From a phage, in the sequence record PZ386961.1: a stretch of DNA of 64,000 nt. The stretch is one strand, 5' to 3'. Shown here in pieces: positions 46,505 through 53,495 of the stretch. A program made the position numbers and the translations under genes. How positions within the stretch are numbered: the stretch's first letter is position 1; each line of letters starts with the position of its first letter. The notes beneath the pieces are model-generated. The model made no database searches, was not told the origin of the DNA, and saw only the letters and a program-made list of their open reading frames with translations.

Positions 46505-46528
46505 AAAAAAGACGGCACAGAGACCGTC
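46505..46528 (-). terminator. rho-independent terminator
   Basis: Stem gacgg/ccgtc followed by T6 on minus strand. Confidence 0.45.
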
Positions 46529-46593
46529 AAGGAGAAACCACAATGTACGTCAGAGACATACTGTATAAGTCTTCTTATAAAGTATAACTCTGT

Positions 46594-46690: not shown

Positions 46691-46766
46691 TGGAGAATCC
46701 GAAGGGACTCGAACCCTTATAAACCTGTTTTGCAGACAGGCACATAGCCATTTCTGTCACGGATTC
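46691..46766 (-). tRNA. tRNA-Cys (anticodon GCA)
   Basis: Manual fold: acceptor gaatccg/cggattc, loop ctGCAaa, T-loop ttcgagt, discriminator U, encoded CCA. Confidence 0.75.
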
Positions 46767-46770
46767 AAAT

Positions 46771-46863
46771 TGGAGGAAGATACCAGACTTGAACTGGTAC
46801 ACCGATTTCTCAGCTACTGGCAGTTTAGCAAACTGCTCCCTTACCTTTTAGGGTTAATCTTCC
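46771..46863 (-). tRNA. tRNA-Ser (anticodon GCU), class II
   Basis: Manual fold: acceptor ggaagat/atcttcc, loop ttGCTaa, long variable arm, about 90 nt. Confidence 0.7.
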
Positions 46864-46865
46864 AT

Positions 46866-47600
46866 TTATTTCTGTAATGCGTTCTTCATTTCTGGTGTTG
46901 CAATAGTGTCAATTACACCAGTTTTACAAGCATCATCAAACCAGTCTGGTAAGATACCTGCTAAGAACCCATTGATATTCGTTTTAAGGTACTCTGCAAT
47001 AAGAGCAGCTTCTTCTTCAATCATCTGCACAACTTCATCTGCATAAGCTGTAATCTTTGAGATACCTTCATTAATCTTACTAACAGCTTGGTTAGCTAAA
47101 TCAGAAATAGTATCAAGACCTTTGTCAATAGCGTCTTGTAAGTCACTTAACACACCATTAACACCGTCTAGTGCACTGTTAATCGTATCAATAGCTTTTT
47201 GACCATACTCTGTAGCAACACCCATAATACCACTAAATGGTGTACAGCCAACTTGTTCACCTGCTGCACCCATAACATTAGAGTAACCTTTTGCTACCTG
47301 CATACGTGATGAAAACTCATCAATGGACTTTTGACCGTAATCTGTTAGTGTTTTGGTGGTTGATGTAGTGCTTGTCAGACTCGTGGTAAAGCTGTTAAGC
47401 AGAACTGTTGTAAGTCCAGCAGCAACAAGCTTATCCTTTACTGTAGGGTCTGATACAGAGCTAATAGAGCTTACAAGTGATGTAGAGGCAGCTACGGTTC
47501 CACCGAGAACTGCTGCACCAGTAATAAGGGGGTTAGAAAACCCTTTACCTGTTTTTAAGAGATTGAAAATCTCCTTACCTTGTTCTGTCATCTCTTTCAT
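46866..47600 (-). CDS. hypothetical Ser/Thr-rich protein embedded in tRNA cluster
   Basis: Start moved to ATG 47598-47600 because the track start (GTG 47663) overlaps a tRNA. Confidence 0.45.
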   Translation of the reverse strand: MKEMTEQGKEIFNLLKTGKGFSNPLITGAAVLGGTVAASTSLVSSISSVSDPTVKDKLVAAGLTTVLLNSFTTSLTSTTSTTKTLTDYGQKSIDEFSSRMQVAKGYSNVMGAAGEQVGCTPFSGIMGVATEYGQKAIDTINSALDGVNGVLSDLQDAIDKGLDTISDLANQAVSKINEGISKITAYADEVVQMIEEEAALIAEYLKTNINGFLAGILPDWFDDACKTGVIDTIATPEMKNALQK

Positions 47601-47616
47601 TAAGCACCTTTGAAAT

Positions 47617-47693
47617 TGGTAGTCCAGTGGGATTTGAACCCTCTTCTCATGTTTTTCAGACACGCGCTTTAACCATATAAGCTACTTGGACTA
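47617..47693 (-). tRNA. tRNA-Phe (anticodon GAA), non-canonical D-arm junction
   Basis: Manual fold: acceptor tagtcca/tggacta, loop ctGAAaa; extra nucleotides between acceptor and D-stem. Confidence 0.45.
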
Positions 47694-47698
47694 TAAAT

Positions 47699-47774
47699 TG
47701 GGGTGACCTACGGGATTTGAACCCGTATAGACCATGTTCACAGCATGGGTCATTACCATTTATGATAAGGCCAC
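47699..47774 (-). tRNA. tRNA-His (anticodon GUG)
   Basis: Manual fold: loop ctGTGaa, discriminator C, T-stem acggg/cccgt. Confidence 0.7.
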
Positions 47775-47805
47775 ATTTAAGGACTCTCGTAAGAATCCTT
47801 AGAAG

Positions 47806-47881
47806 TGGCAGCGGCATAAGGATTTGAACCTTAATAGGACAGCTTCAGAGACTGCTGCATTGCCAGTTATGCTATACCGCT
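47806..47881 (-). tRNA. tRNA-Gln (anticodon CUG)
   Basis: Manual fold: loop ctCTGaa, discriminator G, D-stem gcat/atgc. Confidence 0.65.
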
Positions 47882-47886
47882 AAATT

Positions 47887-47965
47887 TGGTACTCCATATC
47901 GGATTCGAACCGATACATAACACAGATTTTAAGTCTGGCCTCTCTGCCAATTGGAGTAATGGAGC
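47887..47965 (-). tRNA. class-I-like tRNA with leucine anticodon UAA (putative tRNA-Leu without long variable arm)
   Basis: Manual fold: loop ctTAAaa, discriminator A, T-loop ttcgaat, D-loop ccaattggcagag shared with the 48947 and 49526 tRNAs. Confidence 0.45.
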
Positions 47966-47967
47966 AT

Positions 47968-48043
47968 TGGCGGGGGATGTTGGAATTGAACCAACTTCTT
48001 CGATTTCAAAGACCGAGGTTTTAACCTTGTAAACTAATCCCCT
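47968..48043 (-). tRNA. tRNA-Gln (anticodon UUG)
   Basis: Manual fold: loop ctTTGaa, discriminator G, unpaired 1-72. Confidence 0.65.
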
Positions 48044-48051
48044 TTAAATCT

Positions 48052-48609
48052 TTACTTTCTCAGTGGATGAATAAAGAATGCCAACATAACTCTTTCCCTT
48101 GAGAATGCTCTTTCTTCTGGGACAACACTTTTAAGTTTCCATCCAACATAAATTCTCCAGTAAAACTGTTTACCGAAGACTTTAATTGATGGGATAAAAG
48201 CGAATAATCCCCAAGCATTACTGTTCCACATTAGGAGATAACCAGTCTGATTATCTTCAGGGTTAGAACTTACGTTGATATTACCTTTCCACTTAGTAAC
48301 ATCTCTTACATCTCTTCCTAATACATGGTAAGAGAAGTTATAAGCTTTGTTTCTCCAGAGCCATCCGACTCTTTGCATGTAGACACCTAGTTTACCAATC
48401 CATCTAATATTAGCCCATCTTTTAACGTGACCTTCATCACCATCAATTGGGTTGTCATATGTCTCCATCCATCTGAACCCGAAAGGTAAGTGTCCTTTCT
48501 TCTCACTGTAGAATGGAACTACAAAAGGTGCTAAGATAACTGCTAAGATTGCTGCAAATGGCTCTAACAAAGCTAAGAAAATCCATGAAGCATACTTTAA
48601 GTATCTCAT
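48052..48609 (-). CDS. hypothetical Trp-rich membrane protein embedded in tRNA cluster
   Basis: 185 aa, N-terminal hydrophobic helices. Confidence 0.5.
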   Translation of the reverse strand: MRYLKYASWIFLALLEPFAAILAVILAPFVVPFYSEKKGHLPFGFRWMETYDNPIDGDEGHVKRWANIRWIGKLGVYMQRVGWLWRNKAYNFSYHVLGRDVRDVTKWKGNINVSSNPEDNQTGYLLMWNSNAWGLFAFIPSIKVFGKQFYWRIYVGWKLKSVVPEERAFSRERVMLAFFIHPLRK

Positions 48610-48848
48610 TGTCTAATCCTCGTAAGGAGGTAAATGTTATTATTCGTTTCTAAACCTTCTGGTAAAACTGTCTCAAAAATAACACTCTTCAGATGTCTAC
48701 CACCAAAACAATCACGTATAAATCTTTCTACTCTAGCGTGGTCACATAAGTATCCCACTTTTAAGAAAATGTGGTGTTCAACACCAATGACCCTGACAAA
48801 CTCAATACTCTCACAGTTTTCATGTTCAACTACTGTTAATGTTTGCAT
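48606..48848 (-). CDS. hypothetical protein embedded in tRNA cluster
   Basis: 80 aa, ATGA coupling with downstream gene. Confidence 0.45.
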   Translation of the reverse strand: MQTLTVVEHENCESIEFVRVIGVEHHIFLKVGYLCDHARVERFIRDCFGGRHLKSVIFETVLPEGLETNNNIYLLTRIRQ

Positions 48849-48865
48849 AGTATCACCTTTTTATC

Positions 48866-48941
48866 TGGCGCAGGATAAGGGATTCGAACCCCTATTAACA
48901 GCTTCGTAGACTGTTGCTCTTTCCATTTGAACTAATCCTGC
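48866..48941 (-). tRNA. tRNA-Arg (anticodon ACG)
   Basis: Manual fold: acceptor gcaggat/atcctgc, loop ctACGaa. Confidence 0.7.
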
Positions 48942-48946
48942 AAAAT

Positions 48947-49024
48947 TGGTGTTCCAAGACGGATTCGAACCGTCACTAATACAAGGTTTGAGCTTGCATC
49001 CTCTGCCAATTGGGATACTGGAAC
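48947..49024 (-). tRNA. class-I-like tRNA with leucine anticodon CAA (putative tRNA-Leu without long variable arm)
   Basis: Manual fold: loop ctCAAac, discriminator A, paralogous D-arm to the 47887 and 49526 tRNAs. Confidence 0.45.
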
Positions 49025-49025
49025 A

Positions 49026-49100
49026 TGGTACTCACTAAAGGACTTGAACCTTTTTCTTCATCTTGTAAAGGTGATGTTTTACCATATAAACTAAGCGAGT
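49026..49100 (-). tRNA. tRNA-Val (anticodon UAC)
   Basis: Manual fold: loop ttTACaa, D-stem gttt/aaac, discriminator A. Confidence 0.65.
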
Positions 49101-49196
49101 ATGAAAGAGGTCTGAAGTTGTGCCGCTAACTCAACTTCGTGGAATTTGTTACGGTCTTCAGTTGACTCAAAGCGGTCTTTCACTTGACCTCTGAAT
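49101..49196 (-). other. structured non-tRNA spacer inside tRNA cluster
   Basis: Nested inverted repeats agaggtc...gacctct and gaagttg...caacttc; no T-arm. Confidence 0.3.
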
Positions 49197-49273
49197 TGGT
49201 GCTGCTCACAGGACTCGAACCTGCATTTCCATCCTTACAAGGGATGTGTAATAGCCAATTATACGAAAGCAGC
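49197..49273 (-). tRNA. tRNA-Thr (anticodon UGU)
   Basis: Manual fold: stem catcc/ggatg, loop ctTGTaa. Confidence 0.7.
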
Positions 49274-49279
49274 ATTGTT

Positions 49280-49354
49280 TGGAGCATCCAGAGGGAATCG
49301 AACCCTCAACCTCAGTTTGGAAGACTGTAATTTTCCCGTTTAAACTATGGATGC
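49280..49354 (-). tRNA. tRNA-Gly (anticodon UCC)
   Basis: Manual fold: loop ctTCCaa, discriminator U. Confidence 0.65.
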
Positions 49355-49360
49355 ACTAAT

Positions 49361-49436
49361 TGGTGGAGAAGCAGGGAATTGAACCCTGTACTTAAGTTTG
49401 CAAAACTTATGTTTTAACCATGTAAACTACATCCCC
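49361..49436 (-). tRNA. tRNA-Ala (anticodon UGC)
   Basis: Manual fold: loop ttTGCaa, G3-U70 wobble pair, discriminator A. Confidence 0.75.
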
Positions 49437-49442
49437 ATTGTT

Positions 49443-49518
49443 TGGTACAGGTGGAGGGAATTGAACCCATCGTCTTACTGATTAAGAGTCAGCCGCATAA
49501 CCATTTTGCTACACCTGC
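49443..49518 (-). tRNA. tRNA-Lys (anticodon CUU)
   Basis: Manual fold: loop ctCTTaa, discriminator A; imperfect T-stem shared with the 50741 paralog. Confidence 0.55.
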
Positions 49519-49525
49519 ATTAATT

Positions 49526-49602
49526 TGGTACACCTAGAGAGATTCGAACTCACACTGAGCAGATTCTAAGTCTGCTGCCTCTACCAGTTGGGCTATAGGT
49601 GC
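49526..49602 (-). tRNA. class-I-like tRNA with leucine anticodon UAG (putative tRNA-Leu without long variable arm)
   Basis: Manual fold: perfect stem gcaga/tctgc, loop ctTAGaa, discriminator A, about 74 nt. Confidence 0.5.
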
Positions 49603-49858
49603 ATTAAATCTTTTTAGAGAACTTCTAAGAACCTGAGCAACAAGGTTCCACAACAAGCGACTAATAACCTTAGAAGCCCTCTAAAAAGACCTAAATAGGT
49701 CTTTGCATAGTCTTGTTTAATCCGGTGACTAGAACCTTTGGAGAGCTTGATATTATCTCTTCTCCGTGACACCTACTAGGTGCTTTGACAGTGCACGACA
49801 ATACACGAGGGATAAACCGACAATGCGAACAAGCATGGACGGAGTAAATCTTATTAGG

Positions 49859-49946
49859 CGGTAAGTAAAGGAGTCGAACCCTCACCGTATCTCTACAGTG
49901 GCAACTGTTTTCAAGACAGTTTGGCTACCATTAGCCGCTACCTACC
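49859..49946 (-). tRNA. tRNA-Ser (anticodon UGA), class II
   Basis: Manual fold: loop ctTGAaa, long variable arm, 3-bp D-stem, discriminator G, CCA not encoded. Confidence 0.65.
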
Positions 49947-49959
49947 CCTAATAAGACTT

Positions 49960-50042
49960 TGGCATGGGACGGAGGAGTTGAACCCCTTTGAAACGGTGTT
50001 GGAAGCCGTTGCTCATGCCTTAGAGTCTTAACATCGTCCCAT
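49960..50042 (-). tRNA. tRNA-Trp-like (anticodon CCA), non-canonical (about 8 extra nt between acceptor and D-stem)
   Basis: Perfect acceptor atgggac/gtcccat, stem aacgg/ccgtt with ttCCAac loop, D-region too long for standard fold. Confidence 0.35.
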
Positions 50043-50184
50043 ACTATAATTCGAAGCTTACCGTATTATCTCAACACTGTAAAGCCCCTTCTCAGATTAT
50101 TTACATGTTCTGGAAAACATGAGATACAGACCACCTCCCTACAGGAAGACCCGCTTAGGTCGTCTAAGTAATCTGCTAACTATT

Positions 50185-50261
50185 TGGCACACCCTACAGG
50201 ATTCGAACCTGTAACTCAATGATTAGAAGTCATTTGCTCTGTCCAGTTGAACTAAGGGTGC
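50185..50261 (-). tRNA. tRNA-Arg (anticodon UCU)
   Basis: Manual fold: stem aatga/tcatt, loop ctTCTaa. Confidence 0.7.
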
Positions 50262-50463
50262 ATTAATCTTTAAAGACTCTCTTAGAAAGCCCTTAAAGAT
50301 GCCCACCTTATTAATCATACCGTGGGCGAGTACGCCAAATTCTTTGATGAGGGATTGGAAGACCTCACTGGTGTTTAGCCTATCAAGCTACTGCCAGAAA
50401 AACATTGTCGTTTGCATTTATTTTAAATTTGCAAAATAGACGCTACGCAACGAAAACTAAGGT

Positions 50464-50492
50464 TACTATAAAGTAGTCACATCTCAATGTCA
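50464..50492 (-). promoter_or_regulatory. sigma70-like promoter TTGACA-N17-TATAGT inside tRNA cluster
   Basis: Minus-strand hexamers read directly; faces tRNA-Arg(UCU) and downstream tRNAs. Confidence 0.5.
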
Positions 50493-50507
50493 ACAACTTT
50501 ATTGAAA

Positions 50508-50583
50508 TTGGTACTGGTAGGTGGAATCGAACCACCGATGTTCCCTTATCAGGGGAGTGTTATAACCTTCTTAACTATACCAG
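50508..50583 (-). tRNA. tRNA-Ile (anticodon GAU)
   Basis: Manual fold: loop ctGATaa, D-stem gtta/taac, discriminator A. Confidence 0.7.
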
Positions 50584-50584
50584 C

Positions 50585-50661
50585 TTGGAGGTTCAGATGG
50601 GAATCGAACCCACATTCATAGGGCTTATGAGACCCTTGCATTACCTTATCTGCGACTGAAC
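50585..50661 (-). tRNA. tRNA-Met (anticodon CAU)
   Basis: Manual fold: acceptor ggttcag/ctgaacc, loop ctCATaa. Confidence 0.6.
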
Positions 50662-50740
50662 CAGAATAAGTACCCTAGTTAGAGAAACTGTTGAGTGGGT
50701 GTTTCCAGCCGCGCAGGTGTTTCTCAGTTAAGGGTGAATT

Positions 50741-50816
50741 TGGTAGAAGTGGAGGGATTCGAACCCATCGCCTGTCAGATTAAAAGTCTGCCGCATCACC
50801 ATTCTGCTACACTTCC
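50741..50816 (-). tRNA. tRNA-Lys (anticodon UUU)
   Basis: Manual fold: loop ctTTTaa; sequence paralog of the 49443 tRNA. Confidence 0.55.
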
Positions 50817-50820
50817 ATTA

Positions 50821-50963
50821 AATTATCTTTGTAGATAAGCTACCCAGACTTGCTTAAGGTCTGTAGCGATGTGCCTTTTGGGTTTAAATCTAGAATTTAC
50901 CCTTTCACCCTTTGTGGTCGCATACTCACAGGTAAGCTTAATAACTTATCTACAAAGATAATT
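50821..50963. repeat. 19-bp perfect inverted repeat (aattatctttgtagataag / cttatctacaaagataatt) enclosing about 105 nt
   Basis: Both arms read directly at 50821-50839 and 50945-50963. Confidence 0.6.
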
Positions 50964-51017
50964 ACCAGACCGTTGTTTATCATCTTAAGTGCTACCATTA
51001 CACCAACTCGACATCTG

Positions 51018-51050
51018 CCGAGTGAAGGAATCGAACCTTCGCCTTTTCTT
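51018..51050 (-). other. isolated tRNA T-arm-like module (gaagg-ttcgatt-ccttc) followed by hairpin actcg/cgagt; tRNA fragment or tRNA-like ncRNA
   Basis: No matching 5' acceptor strand nearby. Confidence 0.3.
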
Positions 51051-51243
51051 TACCGGAGAAATAGATTGTTTAAAGTTTGCTGTAAACGGTCTTCTGTAAA
51101 TTTGTTGAGCCAGACCAAGTTTTAAATTTTCAAAATTAAATTGGCTTGAAATTTCATACATTCTTGCTGTATTTGGTCTTCTGCTCCTTTAAAGAATACT
51201 CGTAAGAACTCTTTAAGGGAGGGGCTAAATAGCCCTCTCAAAA

Positions 51244-51321
51244 TTGGCGGTTACGAAGGGATTTGAACCCTCATCATCTCCCGTGACAGGGGAGTATTTT
51301 AACCAAATTAAACTACATAAC
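51244..51321 (-). tRNA. tRNA-Asp (anticodon GUC)
   Basis: Manual fold: stem ctccc/gggag, loop ctGTCac, discriminator G. Confidence 0.7.
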
Positions 51322-51326
51322 CTTTA

Positions 51327-51414
51327 TTGGTGTGCCGTGTAGGAGTCGAACCTACCGAGTCTCAATGACAAGGGATTTACAGTCCCCACCGCTACCATCT
51401 ACGGGATAACGACA
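51327..51414 (-). tRNA. tRNA-Tyr (anticodon GUA), class II
   Basis: Manual fold: loop ctGTAaa, long variable arm, discriminator A. Confidence 0.65.
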
Positions 51415-51424
51415 CATTTAAATT

Positions 51425-51501
51425 TGGCGGTTAGTCAGGGATTCGAACCCTGTGCCATTCGCTTAACAGGCGACCGCACATACCTTATGTGCTTCCTAAC
51501 C
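51425..51501 (-). tRNA. tRNA-Asn (anticodon GUU)
   Basis: Manual fold: loop ctGTTaa, discriminator G. Confidence 0.65.
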
Positions 51502-51584
51502 ATGTTTAGTATTACCAGACCGTATCTTTCAATTTTTCCGCTAAAAATTTAATAAGTATTGCTGTAAACGGTCTTCTGTAAATT

Positions 51585-51660
51585 TGGAGGCGGGTGCAGG
51601 AGTCGAACCTGCCGATACCATGCTAATGAGACATGTGAGACGCCCTTTCTCTATACCCGC
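51585..51660 (-). tRNA. tRNA with CAU anticodon (initiator Met or Ile2-type)
   Basis: Manual fold: loop ctCATta, unpaired 1-72, D-stem gaga/tctc. Confidence 0.5.
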
Positions 51661-51752
51661 AATTCTTAATGACCAGACCAAATCTCTTCTTTGTCCGATT
51701 TACCTTCAGATGAATAAGATTAAGTTTGCTGTAATTGGTCTTCTGTCAAAAC

Positions 51753-51830
51753 TGGCGTTCCAGAAGGGATTTGAACCCTCAAATATCCACTTTGAAAGAG
51801 TGGTGACTTTACCATTTTGTCCACTGGAAC
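51753..51830 (-). tRNA. tRNA-Glu (anticodon UUC)
   Basis: Manual fold: stem ccact/agtgg, loop ctTTCaa, discriminator G. Confidence 0.7.
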
Positions 51831-51837
51831 ATTAATT

Positions 51838-51914
51838 TGGTCTCTGTTGGAGGACTTGAACCTCCGGCCTTACCGCCCCAAACGGAACGCTCTACCAAGC
51901 TGAGCTAAACAGAG
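51838..51914 (-). tRNA. tRNA-Pro (anticodon UGG)
   Basis: Manual fold: acceptor ctctgtt/aacagag, D-stem gctc/gagc, loop ttTGGgg. Confidence 0.65.
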
Positions 51915-52032
51915 ATAAACTTTTCAAACTCTATGTAACCACTTTAACATTATTTTTTAGTGGTTGTCAAGAACTTTTTTAAAATATTTTTCAGTATCTT
52001 AGAAAAGCTCTCATTTCGTTTCTATGTAGAAC

Positions 52033-52061
52033 ATATTAAAGGGTATTAAACACATTGTCAA
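52033..52061 (-). promoter_or_regulatory. sigma70-like promoter TTGACA-N17-TAATAT upstream of tRNA cluster
   Basis: Minus-strand hexamers read directly; about 110 nt upstream of tRNA-Pro. Confidence 0.5.
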
Positions 52062-52079
52062 TACCCTTTTTAAAACTTT

Positions 52080-53495
52080 TTACCAGATATAACGGTCAAT
52101 CATTACTGCTTTGAGCATTACACTGATTGGGTCAAACTTCTCACCACCAAGCAGAGCTTTTAAAGTGGCTGGAGAGAACCCTGATACCATTGCTACACCG
52201 TTATCCTTAATAGATACTTCGCAAGTGCCATTACGGTTTGCTAAGTACCAGAATACCAGTTGTGGCATCTCATATCCAGATTTTTCGTACTTATCTCGAA
52301 TTGCTTCAAAGTTTGTACGACCATTAGCACCATCAACCTGATTAAACTCCATATCAGAGAAGATAATAAGCTTACTTGGCATATCTTTCTGAGTCAAGTT
52401 GTTTCTTTTACCTGTTTCAAGAATGCGGTCAAAAGCTGCTTGTAAGTTAGTTGAGCCATATTCAACGTGTCGCATCACCTGACGATGACGGTTTCGTAAA
52501 TCACCACTCAGTTCGATGAAGTGAGGGTTTGTCGAATAAACCATCAACTCATTCTTAAAGCAACCTGTATTGCGTTCTGCTACATACAAGGCAAGTGATA
52601 CACCAATATCCAGAGCAGTAATGGAGCCAAAATTCACCCAAGACATTGAACTTGATACATCAGACATACACAAGATGTTTTCACCTTCTGCCATCCAGTT
52701 TGGTAGTGCTTTCCACTGCTCATTAGCAACATCTGCATTACCATACTTGACAGATTTAATCACATCGTATGGGTAAACAGCACCAGCGTTAATCTTAGTC
52801 TCACCTTTTGATAAGGACTCGATGTAAGCTTTGTAACGCTCTCCATCTTTACGGTTAAACAGTTTTTGGTAACGTGCAGCAGCAAGTGAAGGAATCTTAC
52901 TGTAGTCAATCTTACCAAACTCATTAGCAGAGATTTTTTGCTCAACTGTATCAGATAGTGCAGACAACAGTGTGCGGTACTCTTTCTCACTCAAGTTGGC
53001 AAACTTGCAGAAACGTTTTACAAACTGCTTATGACGTGGTTTGACTCGTGGTAACCACTTAGCCGCCAAACCTGCTGTTGCAGGGTCTAGTAATGCTGCT
53101 TCTAAATGCTTGAAGGCATCTGTCTCGAAACGAGTACCTACAAAGATTTTGAAGTCATCAAAACGACCAAGTTCTGCAATCTTATCCATAATGCGAAGAA
53201 CCTGCGTAGGCTCTAAAACTTTATCTTCAATTGCTTGAAGCAAAACAGTTCTGAAGGCTTTACGCTCACCCATACCTTCTCGTACATCTCGCATATGAAG
53301 CAAAATACGAACTGCAACATCAACATCCTCACGCAAAGCTTTGTAGAACAAGTCTGGTAAGATTTCTACATTGCTACGGCTTGAACCAGCAGCTTTGTAA
53401 AAGTCTACAAGAGCAGACATTGATGAAGTATGGTTTACAGCACCATTTTCAGTTCGACCTGCATGAAGGTGCGCATGTTTAAATAATTCGCTCAT
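52080..53495 (-). CDS. vWA-domain protein with helical N-terminal domain (Ro60/TROVE-like or DUF2828-like)
   Basis: C-terminal MIDAS motif in ILCMSDVSSSMSW (DxSxS) and downstream IIFSDMEF; N-terminal about 270 aa helical. Confidence 0.5.
   Translation of the reverse strand: MSELFKHAHLHAGRTENGAVNHTSSMSALVDFYKAAGSSRSNVEILPDLFYKALREDVDVAVRILLHMRDVREGMGERKAFRTVLLQAIEDKVLEPTQVLRIMDKIAELGRFDDFKIFVGTRFETDAFKHLEAALLDPATAGLAAKWLPRVKPRHKQFVKRFCKFANLSEKEYRTLLSALSDTVEQKISANEFGKIDYSKIPSLAAARYQKLFNRKDGERYKAYIESLSKGETKINAGAVYPYDVIKSVKYGNADVANEQWKALPNWMAEGENILCMSDVSSSMSWVNFGSITALDIGVSLALYVAERNTGCFKNELMVYSTNPHFIELSGDLRNRHRQVMRHVEYGSTNLQAAFDRILETGKRNNLTQKDMPSKLIIFSDMEFNQVDGANGRTNFEAIRDKYEKSGYEMPQLVFWYLANRNGTCEVSIKDNGVAMVSGFSPATLKALLGGEKFDPISVMLKAVMIDRYIW

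What the first reader, a model, noticed from the sequence alone, without database searches (positions are those of the whole stretch)
46691..51914. Apparently complete tRNA repertoire (all 20 amino acids) in one minus-strand cluster with internal promoters
About 27 tRNA genes are packed at 2-6 nt spacing in sub-blocks, with sigma70-like promoters at 52033-52061 and 50464-50492 and terminator hairpins at the 3' end. If the Leu, Trp and Phe calls hold, every amino acid is represented, with two isoacceptors each for Gln, Arg, Lys, Ser and Met/CAU.
Basis: partly seen in the sequence, partly recalled or inferred. Interest (0 to 1): 0.45.

Follow-up and report, generated by a model that had tools for sequence, protein, structure and literature searches.

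The report
Phage tRNA cluster hiding Ro60-partner RNAs
This is the well-known tRNA gene cluster of a Felix O1-like phage (26 tRNAs, 19 amino acids, no standard Trp), but four unannotated small RNAs sit between the tRNAs and look like the partners of the Ro60-like protein encoded just upstream, a pairing that recurs in very different phages.

Summary
The window is a Felixounavirus, 97% identical to E. coli phages Pr103Blw, typing phage 1 and wV8. ARAGORN finds 26 minus-strand tRNA genes at exactly 46691-51914. Rfam confirms 24 of them. They cover 19 amino acids and there is no canonical tRNA-Trp, so "all 20" fails. The cluster is already annotated in hundreds of phage records. Codon usage fits compensation: AGA, ACA, AAG, UCA and CUA are all over-used relative to the host and each has a phage tRNA.

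The new part lies in the gaps. The gene just upstream (52080-53495) folds like Ro60. Four copies of one RNA module (M1-M4, 51741-50966) share a covarying terminal stem, a single-stranded UACAGCAA and a 3' CUG. M4 also carries a permuted T-arm, acceptor hairpin and D-arm, as in bacterial YrlA Y RNAs. A covariance model finds this module only on the strand of the Ro60-like gene: 43 of 43 hits in viral contigs and 22 of 22 in independent bacterial assemblies. It also occurs in Listeria and Mycobacterium phages.

The module has the same features as Dictyostelium Class I RNAs. A conserved, non-canonical Trp-like tRNA also sits at 50042-49960. Protein binding and function are inferred, not shown.

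The parts
52080..53495 (-). Ro60-like protein gene (471 aa; Pfam DUF2828 + DUF7788; PHROG 850 'RNA-binding protein'); homolog of Bas63 gp130
   Evidence: Pfam and PHROG. AF2 model pLDDT 87. The Foldseek top 11 PDB hits are all Ro60/TROVE, best 2i91_A at TMq 0.65. MIDAS residues D279, S281, S283, T349 and D381 are invariant.
52033..52061 (-). Promoter-like site P1 (TTGACA-17-TAATAT), embedded in a 12-bp hairpin just after the Ro60-like gene's stop
   Evidence: D8
51941..51970 (-). Promoter-like site P2 (TTGACA-18-TAAAGT, with TG)
   Evidence: D8
51838..51914 (-). tRNA-Pro(UGG)
51753..51830 (-). tRNA-Glu(UUC)
51674..51741 (-). Module M1: AGACCAA-UU-ACAGCAA-44 nt-UUGGUCU-G
   Evidence: Strict pattern. 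CM R1 42.2 bits, E 2.5e-6. MFE recovers the terminal stem.
51585..51661 (-). Atypical tRNA(CAU) #1: U1-C72 mismatch, U37, U73, 7-nt D loop; flanked by M1 and M2
   Evidence: ARAGORN; not reported by Rfam
51516..51574 (-). Module M2: AGACCGU-UU-ACAGCAA-35 nt-ACGGUCU-G
   Evidence: (44.7 bits). Weak Rfam hit to Dicty_Class_I_RNA, 20.3 bits.
51425..51501 (-). tRNA-Asn(GUU)
51328..51415 (-). tRNA-Tyr(GUA), long variable arm
   Evidence: Rfam only as tRNA-Sec-like at 29.6 bits
51245..51322 (-). tRNA-Asp(GUC)
51111..51179 (-). Module M3: AGACCAA-AU-ACAGCAA-45 nt-UUGGUCU-G
   Evidence: (37.6 bits)
50966..51092 (-). Module M4: same handle enclosing a V hairpin, T arm (51040-51024), 7-bp acceptor-like hairpin (51023-51006) and D arm (51003-50989). 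This is the YrlA-like permuted tRNA mimic.
   Evidence: CM R1 37.3 bits although not in the training set. MFE cloverleaf. The acceptor hairpin is 100% paired with 3 doubly changed pairs across Ounavirinae genera. The sub-threshold Rfam tRNA hit at 51016-51080 comes from its T arm.
50817..50965 (-). Conserved long hairpin RNA of unknown role
   Evidence: z = -6.1; 18-bp stem 96.7% paired with 3 compensatory pairs
50741..50816 (-). tRNA-Lys(UUU)
50663..50740 (-). 78-nt hairpin insertion, absent from typing phage 1
   Evidence: z = -4.3
50586..50662 (-). tRNA(CAU) #2 (Met or Ile2; U73)
50509..50584 (-). tRNA-Ile(GAU)
50465..50493 (-). Promoter-like site P3 (TTGACA-17-TATAGT, 11/12)
   Evidence: D8
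50185..50261 (-). tRNA-Arg(UCU)
49960..50042 (-). Non-canonical tRNA-Trp-like element: A1-U72, G73-CCA, CCA anticodon arm, T arm, and a 10-nt connector before a 3-bp D stem
   Evidence: Conserved in 257 phage records and unannotated. Compensatory changes against Yersinia phage P778.
49857..49946 (-). tRNA-Ser(UGA)
49526..49602 (-). tRNA-Leu(UAG), short variable loop
49443..49518 (-). tRNA-Lys(CUU)
49361..49436 (-). tRNA-Ala(UGC), has G3:U70
49280..49354 (-). tRNA-Gly(UCC)
49197..49273 (-). tRNA-Thr(UGU)
49026..49100 (-). tRNA-Val(UAC)
48947..49024 (-). tRNA-Leu(CAA), short variable loop
48866..48941 (-). tRNA-Arg(ACG)
48052..48848 (-). Two small ORFs inside the cluster (80 aa, PHROG 14202; 185 aa, DUF7338)
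47968..48043 (-). tRNA-Gln(UUG)
47887..47965 (-). tRNA-Leu(UAA), short variable loop
47806..47881 (-). tRNA-Gln(CUG)
47699..47774 (-). tRNA-His(GUG), no encoded G-1
47617..47692 (-). tRNA-Phe(GAA), weak T stem
   Evidence: (45 bits)
46866..47600 (-). ORF inside the cluster (244 aa, DUF7217)
46771..46863 (-). tRNA-Ser(GCU)
46691..46766 (-). tRNA-Cys(GCA)
46511..46528 (-). Intrinsic terminator (GACGGTCTCTGTGCCGTC followed by T6)

Best explanation
The region is the tRNA gene cluster of a Felixounavirus. It holds 26 CCA-encoding tRNA genes for 19 amino acids. Transcription most likely starts at host-type promoters (P1/P2 upstream of tRNA-Pro, P3 upstream of tRNA-Arg-UCU) and ends at an intrinsic terminator. 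Host tRNA-processing enzymes would cut the transcripts, and the tRNAs would supplement decoding of the A/U-ending codons that this 39% GC phage favours.

A second RNA system is interleaved with the tRNAs. Four copies of a small RNA module (M1-M4) each have a terminal 7-8 bp stem opening with A-G and closing with C-U. Each has the single-stranded motif (U)ACAGCAA right after the 5' strand, a variable interior, and a G after the 3' strand. I propose that tRNA processing releases these spacers. I further propose that the stem plus ACAGCAA is the handle bound by the Ro60-like protein encoded just upstream, so the modules act as this phage's Y RNAs. The variable interior would be the effector end. 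In M4 it is a permuted tRNA mimic (T arm, closed acceptor hairpin, D arm), as in bacterial YrlA.

Shown here: the tRNA set, the Ro60-like fold, the reality and covariation of the module, and its strict strand and position linkage to DUF2828 genes across distant phages. Inferred: co-transcription and processing, protein-RNA binding, and the biological role. Likely roles are RNA quality control or repair, or a decoy or tether against host defences. A preprint reports that the Bas63 homolog counters the ppl defence system.
For: Identity:
- The cluster is 97% identical to annotated Felixounavirus clusters; typing phage 1 carries the same 26 tRNAs.

tRNAs:
-. Discriminator bases fit E. coli identity rules for most, and Ala has G3:U70.
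- Phage/host codon ratios are high for codons with a phage tRNA: AGA 8.9x, ACA 3.7x, AAG 3.1x, UCA 2.8x, CUA 2.3x. Median ratio is 1.27 for cognate codons against 0.78 for the rest, Mann-Whitney p = 0.012.

Protein:
- DUF2828 + DUF7788.
- The top 11 PDB fold hits are all Ro60, including the Thermus phage Ro60.
- MIDAS residues are invariant.
- The PhageMaP preprint notes the Ro60-like fold of Bas63 gp130 and its action against ppl.

Module:
- Four copies in the window, and nothing else in 64 kb scores above 13.8 bits.
- Strict pattern in 80 viral contigs: 64 hits on the gene strand, 0 on the other strand, about 1 expected from shuffles; 54 lie within 1.5 kb of the gene.
- 42 distinct stem sequences. 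Five of 7 handle pairs show double changes, and covariation is 0.81 against 0.18 in shuffles.
- The CM finds 43 of 43 hits on the gene strand in viral contigs, including loci outside the training set, and 22 of 22 in independent bacterial assemblies, mostly just upstream of the gene.
- The same module occurs in Listeria phage LMLPA3 and Mycobacterium phage Crossroads.
- In a distant relative (L007) the modules again sit between tRNAs.

YrlA-like interior:
- M4's acceptor hairpin keeps 7 bp through three different sequences.
- A related module in L019 hits Rfam YrlA at 39.2 bits.
- An RtcB-type RNA ligase is encoded near the Listeria phage gene; known bacterial Ro60 loci lie in an RtcB/RtcA RNA repair operon (title and abstract listed, plus background knowledge).
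Against: - There is no expression or binding data.
- The protein does not match Pfam TROVE by sequence.
- The modules lack the CGAA/GNCGAA motif of known Y RNAs and do not reach the Rfam YrlA threshold.
- Folding energies of M1-M4 are not unusual, z = -0.65 to -1.5.
- Only 31 of 80 viral loci have a strict module near the gene, and KVP40 has none within 3 kb.
- The loci were fetched through the protein, so I did not test whether modules also occur without it.
- PhageMaP found the Bas63 tRNA genes mostly non-essential on laboratory strains.
Confidence: 0.72

Rival explanations
1. One reading: a truly complete decoding set, with the element at 50042-49960 serving as a working tRNA-Trp despite its odd D region.
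For: The element has A1-U72, G73 and CCA, which I recall as E. coli Trp identity features. Its anticodon arm ACGGC/UUCCAAC/ACCGU is of the same type as phage genes that ARAGORN calls tRNA-Trp. It is conserved in 257 records. Against Yersinia phage P778 it shows compensatory changes in the acceptor, D and anticodon stems.
Against: It is not called by ARAGORN at default settings or by Rfam at E <= 5. ARAGORN at a lowered threshold (ps80) gives only a different-register 'Pyl' call overlapping it. A 10-nt connector replaces nucleotides 8-9, and the D stem has only 3 bp. No annotated relative lists a tRNA-Trp. UGG is not over-used by the phage, ratio 0.82.
Confidence: 0.2
2. M1-M4 are only spacer or processing elements of the tRNA precursor (nuclease entry sites or stabilising hairpins) and have nothing to do with the Ro60-like protein.
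For: They lie between tRNAs on the same strand, both here and in L007. Their thermodynamic stability is unremarkable.
Against: The same module sits next to DUF2828 genes where no tRNA is adjacent. Examples are Mycobacterium phage Crossroads downstream of gp55, with no tRNA annotated in the 6.4-kb stretch, and many bacterial-assembly loci immediately upstream of the gene. A strictly conserved single-stranded 7-mer with freely covarying stems points to a protein-binding handle. Interiors carry elaborate conserved domains.
Confidence: 0.12
3. The M3-M4 stretch is a small protein-coding gene (58-aa ORF 50985-51161), as some records annotate.
For: An ORF exists. A few records place 'hypothetical protein' there.
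Against: The ATG is lost in Moogle and SUSP1, and frame-breaking indels of 1, 2 and 4 nt occur. Variation is compensatory in RNA stems instead. Most records annotate nothing there.
Confidence: 0.02
4. The repeats are promoter, operator or mobile-element repeats acting at the DNA level. For example, TTGCTGTA on the other strand resembles a T4 MotA box as I recall it.
For: There are four copies of a 28-nt block (family D4).
Against: The strand bias is absolute, 0 of 66 opposite-strand ACAGCAA sites have the paired context. Paired flanks covary. The module occurs in Listeria and Mycobacterium phages; as far as I recall these lack MotA-type regulation, which I did not check.
Confidence: 0.03

Closest known systems
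tRNA clusters of Felix O1-like phages (Felixounavirus: Felix O1, wV8, typing phage 1, Bas63) and of other large lytic phages
   Same: Same genes in the same order at 94-97% identity. RefSeq NC_041979 lists the identical 26 tRNAs. The codon-compensation logic holds.
   Different: Nothing of substance. The window has a 78-nt hairpin insertion between tRNA(CAU) #2 and Lys(UUU). Relatives lose single tRNAs and carry 24-25.
Ro60 (Rsr) with Y RNAs, especially YrlA (Rfam RF02553). Known in Salmonella, M. smegmatis, mycobacteriophages, Caulobacter phage CcrColossus, Bacillus phage G and Thermus phage phiLo
   Same: Ring-plus-vWA protein fold. Small RNAs are encoded beside the gene on the same strand, often several per locus. 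The design is modular: a terminal stem with a conserved 5'-side motif, plus a variable effector end. One RNA per locus has V, T arm, acceptor-like hairpin and D arm in the YrlA order. An RtcB-type ligase is encoded nearby in a Listeria phage.
   Different: The protein belongs to Pfam DUF2828/DUF7788, not TROVE. The conserved motif is ACAGCAA, not GNCGAA/CGAA. The window's modules do not hit RF02553, and relatives score 21.6-39.2 bits against a threshold of 69. Here the RNAs are embedded in a tRNA cluster.
Class I RNAs of dictyostelid social amoebae (Rfam RF01414)
   Same: Length is similar, about 45-80 nt. Both have a short terminal stem joining the 5' and 3' ends with a conserved G-C closing pair. 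Both place the motif (CC)UUACAGCAA directly after the 5' strand, have a variable interior and end in CUG. Twenty-five of 33 D. discoideum Class I RNAs fit the phage-derived pattern. The Rfam Class I model hits phage modules end to end.
   Different: Scores of 14.7-24.4 bits fall below the gathering score of 41.5. The taxon is eukaryotic and the promoter (DUSE) is different. The known direct binder is the RRM protein Rnp1A. Class I RNAs were reported as unique to Dictyostelia. I could not verify that a Dictyostelium DUF2828 protein exists.

Membership tests
tRNA (RF00005 / ARAGORN cloverleaf) | Cloverleaf detected by automated predictors | tested here: met
   26 of 26 by ARAGORN. 24 of 26 reach the Rfam gathering score; Tyr and CAU #1 do not.
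Complete tRNA repertoire (all 20 amino acids) | At least one canonical tRNA for each amino acid | tested here: not met
   No tRNA-Trp is called in the window, by ARAGORN in six related contigs, or in two annotated relatives. Only a non-canonical Trp-like element exists.
Class II tRNA-Leu (bacterial type) | Long variable arm | tested here: not met
   All three Leu tRNAs have 4-7 nt variable loops. They do have A73 and 11-nt D loops.
Ro60 / TROVE protein | HEAT-repeat ring plus vWA domain fold | tested here: met
   Foldseek top 11 hits are Ro60/Rsr/phage Ro60 over about 500-570 aligned columns, TMq up to 0.65. Model pLDDT is 87.
Ro60 / TROVE protein | Sequence match to the Pfam TROVE domain | tested here: not met
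   Pfam returns only DUF2828 and DUF7788. A PDB sequence search finds no Ro60.
Ro60 / TROVE protein | MIDAS motif in the vWA domain | tested here: met
   D279-x-S281-x-S283, T349 and D381 are invariant in 35 homologs.
Ro60 / TROVE protein | Binds Y RNA and misfolded RNA | not testable with these tools
   No binding data are available.
YrlA Y RNA (RF02553) | Covariance-model score at or above the gathering score (69 bits) | tested here: not met
   No hit in the window at E <= 10. Related modules score 39.2 bits (L019) and 21.6 bits (Crossroads).
YrlA Y RNA (RF02553) | Order: 5' motif, V, T arm, acceptor-like hairpin, D arm, all closed by a terminal stem | tested here: met
   M4, compared with the description in PMC4201824.
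YrlA Y RNA (RF02553) | GNCGAA(N)G motif near the 5' end | tested here: not met
   The modules have ACAGCAA, with variants UCAGCAA and ACCGCAA.
YrlA Y RNA (RF02553) | Encoded next to the Ro60-type gene | tested here: met
Dictyostelid Class I RNA (RF01414) | Covariance-model score at or above the gathering score (41.5 bits) | tested here: not met
   20.3 and 14.7 bits in the window; 23.1-24.4 bits in other phages.
Dictyostelid Class I RNA (RF01414) | Terminal stem, 11-nt motif beside the 5' strand, 3' CUG(U) | tested here: met
   The stem, UUACAGCAA (9 of 11 nt) and CUG are present in M2 and M4; M1 and M3 match 8 of 11. Dictyostelium sequences fit the phage pattern in 25 of 33 cases.
Dictyostelid Class I RNA (RF01414) | DUSE promoter about 60 nt upstream; dictyostelid genome | not tested
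   This is a eukaryotic promoter element, so I did not look for it in the phage.
Intrinsic terminator | GC-rich hairpin followed by a T run | tested here: met
   46528-46511.

The most novel reading that the evidence does not exclude
The ACAGCAA-handle RNAs and the Class I RNAs of Dictyostelium may be one RNA class: Y-RNA-like partners of DUF2828-type Ro60-like proteins, a family found in phages and eukaryotes. Class I RNAs have had no settled function since 2004 and were thought unique to social amoebae. Under this reading they would gain a candidate protein partner and a candidate mechanism. Hundreds of phages, from Felix O1 relatives to Listeria and Mycobacterium phages, would carry a previously unrecognised Ro-type RNP embedded in or beside their tRNA clusters.
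Probability: 0.25. Interest if true: 0.85.

Novelty: new variant of a known kind. Interest (0 to 1): 0.62.

Why it matters
The tRNA cluster itself is textbook. The embedded modules matter for three reasons.

- They give a concrete, testable RNA partner for the Ro60-like protein. One preprint found that the Bas63 homolog counters a bacterial defence system, and it could only guess that "some tRNA genes are possibly Y RNAs".
- They define a simple, searchable handle that marks an unannotated ncRNA family. It was found here in Ounavirinae, Listeria and Mycobacterium phages and in many metagenomic viral contigs and bacterial assemblies.
- The handle matches the defining features of Dictyostelium Class I RNAs, which turns an old question about those RNAs into a direct experiment.

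For annotation, it shows that the "gaps" in phage tRNA arrays can hold functional RNAs that tRNA finders and Rfam miss.

Tried and rejected
- **Looser ARAGORN thresholds.** These added only spurious calls inside ORFs or on the wrong strand, plus a "Pyl(cta)" call in a wrong register over the Trp-like element.
- **Alternative stem pairing.** I first read the Ro-binding helix as GGUCUGG...CAGAAGACC wrapping the CAU tRNA. I dropped this because M4 and all distant modules close as 5'-AG-stem...stem-CUG-3' around their own interior.
- **Extra module copies.** Two handle-like remnants (46577-46548 and about 50100) are not supported by the covariance model.
- **Weak tmRNA and permuted-tmRNA hits at 50262-50567.** I judged these to be driven by the adjacent tRNA-Ile and did not pursue them.
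- **Looking for a Dictyostelium DUF2828 protein.** Searching the proteome text in a paper's supplement found nothing, but the file is truncated, so the result is inconclusive.
- **Papers not held.** Avesson 2011, which lists the four Class I-binding proteins, and the 2020 Ro60 review could not be read.
- **KVP40.** It has the protein but no module within 3 kb.

Full report
**What the window is**

The 6.5 kb around the finding is 97% identical to E. coli phages vB_EcoM-Pr103Blw, typing phage 1 and wV8. It matches 354 phage records, 237 of them over at least 80% of its length. These are Felixounavirus (Felix O1-like) myoviruses. The RefSeq record of typing phage 1 annotates the same 26 tRNAs in the same order, flanked by the large terminase on one side and an "RNA-binding protein" on the other. 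So the cluster as such is already known and annotated.

**Checking the observation**

- ARAGORN finds 26 tRNA genes, all on the minus strand, from 46691 to 51914.
- Rfam's tRNA model reaches its gathering score for 24. tRNA-Tyr scores only as tRNA-Sec-like (29.6 bits). The CAU tRNA at 51585-51661 is not reported even at E <= 5.
- All but one ARAGORN call include a CCA end; for Ser(UGA) the call stops at GCC, and the next genomic base is T, so its CCA is not encoded.
- The set covers Ala, Arg(2), Asn, Asp, Cys, Gln(2), Glu, Gly, His, Ile, Leu(3), Lys(2), CAU(2), Phe, Pro, Ser(2), Thr, Tyr and Val. That is 19 amino acids.
- No tRNA-Trp is called in the window, by ARAGORN in six related contigs, or in the two annotated relatives I inspected. 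Relatives carry 22-25 tRNAs.
- Discriminator bases agree with E. coli identity rules for most species, and tRNA-Ala has G3:U70. This argues for working genes rather than pseudogenes.
There is a third, and the three share a 27-nt block. The total count of promoter-like hits is no higher than in shuffles.
- A strong intrinsic terminator lies 163 nt past tRNA-Cys.

**Codon usage**

Codons with a Watson-Crick cognate phage tRNA are used more than in the host. The median ratio is 1.27 against 0.78 for the rest (p = 0.012). The largest excesses are AGA 8.9x, ACA 3.7x, AAG 3.1x, UCA 2.8x, CUA 2.3x, GUA 2.0x and CCA 1.9x. This fits the usual compensation model. UGG is not over-used (0.82) and AUA is rare.

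**The Trp question**

Between tRNA-Arg(UCU) and tRNA-Ser(UGA) lies an 83-nt element (50042-49960).

- It has a 7-bp acceptor stem starting A1-U72, then G73 and CCA, and a T arm.
- Its anticodon arm is ACGGC/UUCCAAC/ACCGU. Arms of this type occur in phage genes that ARAGORN calls tRNA-Trp(CCA).
- A 10-nt connector (GAUGUUAAGA) replaces the usual two nucleotides before a 3-bp D stem. Neither ARAGORN at default settings nor Rfam accepts it.
- It is conserved in 257 phage records and annotated in none of those listed.
- Yersinia phage P778 has a homolog at the same position between Arg(UCU) and Ser(UGA). It keeps the connector and changes both sides of pairs in the acceptor stem (A-U to G-C, U-A to C-G), the D stem (CUC/GAG to CAC/GUG) and the anticodon stem.

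So this is a selected structure, not debris. Whether it is charged and decodes is unknown. I score the "complete repertoire" claim as not met for canonical tRNAs, with this caveat.

**The gene upstream**

ORF 52080-53495 (471 aa) matches Pfam DUF2828 and DUF7788 and PHROG 850 "RNA-binding protein". It has no sequence match to any solved structure. An AlphaFold2 model built from 35 homologs has pLDDT 87 and pTM 0.87. Its 11 best PDB fold matches are all Ro60: Xenopus Ro60 (TMq 0.65), Deinococcus Rsr and the Thermus phage phiLo Ro60. vWA domains follow. The MIDAS residues DxSxS, T and D are invariant.

The family occurs in 710 phage records, including Vibrio KVP40-like, Aeromonas, Campylobacter, Listeria, Staphylococcus, Enterococcus, Bacillus and Mycobacterium phages. 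Some annotators call it "Ro-like RNA binding protein". A preprint (PMC11482910) noted the Ro60-like fold of the Bas63 homolog gp130 and found that it counters the ppl defence system. [quoted passage not shown]

**The modules**

Reading the gaps on the minus strand shows a four-fold repeat (family D4) that resolves into four hairpin-closed modules:

| Module | Coordinates | Position |
|---|---|---|
| M1 | 51741-51674 | between Glu and CAU #1 |
| M2 | 51574-51516 | between CAU #1 and Asn |
| M3 | 51179-51111 | between Asp and Lys(UUU), before M4 |
| M4 | 51092-50966 | between Asp and Lys(UUU), after M3 |

Each has the form 5'-AGACC(N2-3)-(N1-2)-ACAGCAA-interior-(N2-3)GGUCU-G-3'. MFE folding recovers the terminal stem in all four. 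In M4 it also recovers a V hairpin, a T arm (GAAGGUUCGAUUCCUUC), a 7-bp hairpin in the acceptor position and a D arm (GUGUAAUGGUAGCAC). This is the order described for YrlA, where the Ro60-binding stem takes the place of the anticodon stem. The T arm explains the sub-threshold Rfam tRNA hit at 51016-51080.

**Is the module real, and is it tied to the protein?**

- I fetched 80 viral contigs through the protein; 75 of them are only 38-47% identical to it.
- A strict pattern was used: AG-stem of 6-10 bp, 0-3 nt, ACAGCAA, 6-200 nt, complementary strand ending CU, then G. It gives 64 hits on the gene strand and none on the other. Shuffles give about one. Fifty-four hits lie within 1.5 kb of the gene.
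- Of 98 ACAGCAA 7-mers near the gene on its strand, 54 have the paired context. For the 66 on the opposite strand the figure is 0.
- There are 42 different stem sequences. In an alignment of 26 short modules, five of seven pairs change on both sides. The outer A-U and G-C pairs never vary. Sliding the partner by one column drops pairing from 99% to about 42%. Pairing itself was a selection criterion, so the informative parts are the sequence diversity, the strand bias and the position bias.
- A covariance model built from these sequences finds exactly four hits in the 64-kb window with filters off. M4 scores 37.3 bits although it was not in the training set, and the next hit scores 13.8 bits.
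- The model gives 43 hits at E <= 0.01 in 1.0 Mb of viral loci, all on the gene strand and several in loci outside the training set.
- In an independent set of 80 bacterial-assembly loci it gives 22 hits, all on the gene strand and mostly within 300 nt upstream of the gene.
- Named examples: Listeria phage LMLPA3 has three modules between a promoter-like TTGACA...TTATCAT and the gene, with an RtcB-type RNA ligase 1.3 kb downstream. Mycobacterium phage Crossroads has three modules after gp55, the middle one with T arm, acceptor hairpin and D arm, followed by a terminator-like GC-rich hairpin and T run.
- In L019 a module with the variant motif ACCGCAA encloses a tRNA-like domain that hits Rfam YrlA at 39.2 bits.
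- In L007, a distant 88-kb phage, the gene is again followed by 22 tRNAs with modules between them.

**Within the Ounavirinae**

The M3-M4 stretch is conserved in 248 records and almost never annotated. I aligned the window with Moogle, SUSP1, Sf16 and KPS64.

- M4's acceptor-like hairpin keeps seven pairs through three different sequences: ACUCGGC/GUCGAGU, ACACGUU/GGCGUGU and ACCCUUC/GAAGGGU. It is 100% paired, with three doubly changed pairs.
- The T and D arms are invariant.
- The 58-aa ORF over M3-M4 loses its ATG and suffers frame-breaking indels, so it is not coding.

**Comparison with known RNAs**

No Rfam family reaches its gathering score on these modules. They differ from described Y RNAs in motif (ACAGCAA against GNCGAA/CGAA) and in protein family. 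I therefore file them as a new variant of the Ro60-Y RNA kind, not as YrlA members.

Unexpectedly, the only Rfam model that aligns to the short modules end to end is Dicty_Class_I_RNA. It scores 20.3 and 14.7 bits in the window and 24.4, 23.4 and 23.1 bits in three other phages, and always coincides with a module. Class I RNAs are defined by a short terminal stem with a conserved 5' G, the motif CCUUACAGCAA next to the 5' strand, a variable interior and a 3' CUGU. They were reported as unique to Dictyostelia and have no settled function. Of 33 distinct curated D. discoideum Class I RNAs, 25 satisfy the phage-derived pattern. DUF2828 proteins occur in eukaryotes, plants at least, and the Class I authors' own outgroup table lists Arabidopsis and Capsaspora candidates. 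I could not verify a Dictyostelium DUF2828 protein. The link therefore remains a hypothesis.

**How it most likely works**

- Shown: the tRNA set and its codon fit; the Ro60-like fold; the module's structure, covariation, and strand and position linkage to the gene across distant phages.
- Inferred: the tRNA array and modules are co-transcribed from P1/P2 and P3. tRNA processing frees the modules. The AG-stem/ACAGCAA/CUG handle binds the Ro60-like protein. The interiors recruit or mimic other partners, with M4 acting as a tRNA mimic.
- Possible roles, by analogy with Rsr-YrlA-RtcB systems and the ppl result, include RNA quality control or repair during infection, or decoying or tethering of host nucleases. 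None of these was tested.

Noticed in passing
window 47887-47965, 48947-49024, 49526-49602 (minus strand): All three tRNA-Leu genes (UAA, CAA, UAG) have short variable loops of 4-7 nt instead of the long arm of bacterial tRNA-Leu. They do have A73 and 11-nt D loops of the form AAYUGGYAGA. The distant relative L007 also has 77-78 nt Leu tRNAs.
   Followed up: partly
window 51585-51661 (minus strand): The CAU tRNA flanked by M1 and M2 is atypical. It has a U1-C72 mismatch, U at position 37, U73 and a 7-nt D loop, and the Rfam tRNA model does not report it. It may not be an ordinary Met tRNA.
   Followed up: partly
window 47699-47774 (minus strand): tRNA-His has C73, but the base at -1 is T, so the G-1 that I recall bacterial HisRS needing is not encoded.
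   Followed up: no
window 50817-50965 (minus strand): A 149-nt element just after M4 folds into a hairpin with a stem of about 24 bp (z = -6.1). Mooglevirus and Suspvirus keep the stem through three compensatory pair changes while the interior differs. It matched no Rfam family in the window scans.
   Followed up: partly
window 50663-50740 (minus strand): A 78-nt stable hairpin (z = -4.3) sits between tRNA(CAU) #2 and tRNA-Lys(UUU). In typing phage 1 these two genes are only 4 nt apart.
   Followed up: no
window 49603-49856 and 50262-50508 (minus strand): Two further gaps of about 250 nt hold a 26-nt inverted repeat (49604-49629 / 49669-49694), a terminator-like AGACC...GGUCUUUUU hairpin, and weak tmRNA-like Rfam hits (E about 0.003). 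I did not work out their nature.
   Followed up: no
window 52038-52069 (minus strand): The -35 box of promoter-like site P1 lies inside a 12-bp hairpin that starts 11 nt after the stop codon of the Ro60-like gene. The hairpin could equally be that gene's 3' stabiliser or terminator.
   Followed up: no
L085 (Listeria phage LMLPA3) 5306-6455: An RtcB-type RNA ligase gene lies 1.3 kb downstream of the DUF2828 gene and its three modules. This echoes the bacterial Ro60-linked RtcB/RtcA RNA repair operon.
   Followed up: no
L008, L009, L013, L017, L032 (modules upstream of the DUF2828 gene); L024, L040, L055: Long modules carry other recurrent interior domains, for example GAACCUUUCUGGAGGGGAAAGCAAAAACUCGCC in one group and GAGACCCGGAGAUCAGUGACCUGGUUCAAAACU in L040/L055. 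This suggests several effector-domain classes on the same handle. L024 also has a tmRNA gene nearby.
   Followed up: no
PMC7919456 supplementary table: The Class I RNA authors' outgroup search lists handle-like candidates in Arabidopsis (ath_can_1: UGUUUUC-AUU-ACAGCAA...GAAAAC-UG, score 40) and Capsaspora. They were dismissed for lack of the dictyostelid promoter. Plants do encode DUF2828 proteins.
   Followed up: no
window 46548-46577 (minus strand): A mini handle-like sequence (AAGAAGAC-UUAU-ACAG-UAU-GUCUCUG) lies between tRNA-Cys and the terminator. The covariance model does not support it.
   Followed up: yes
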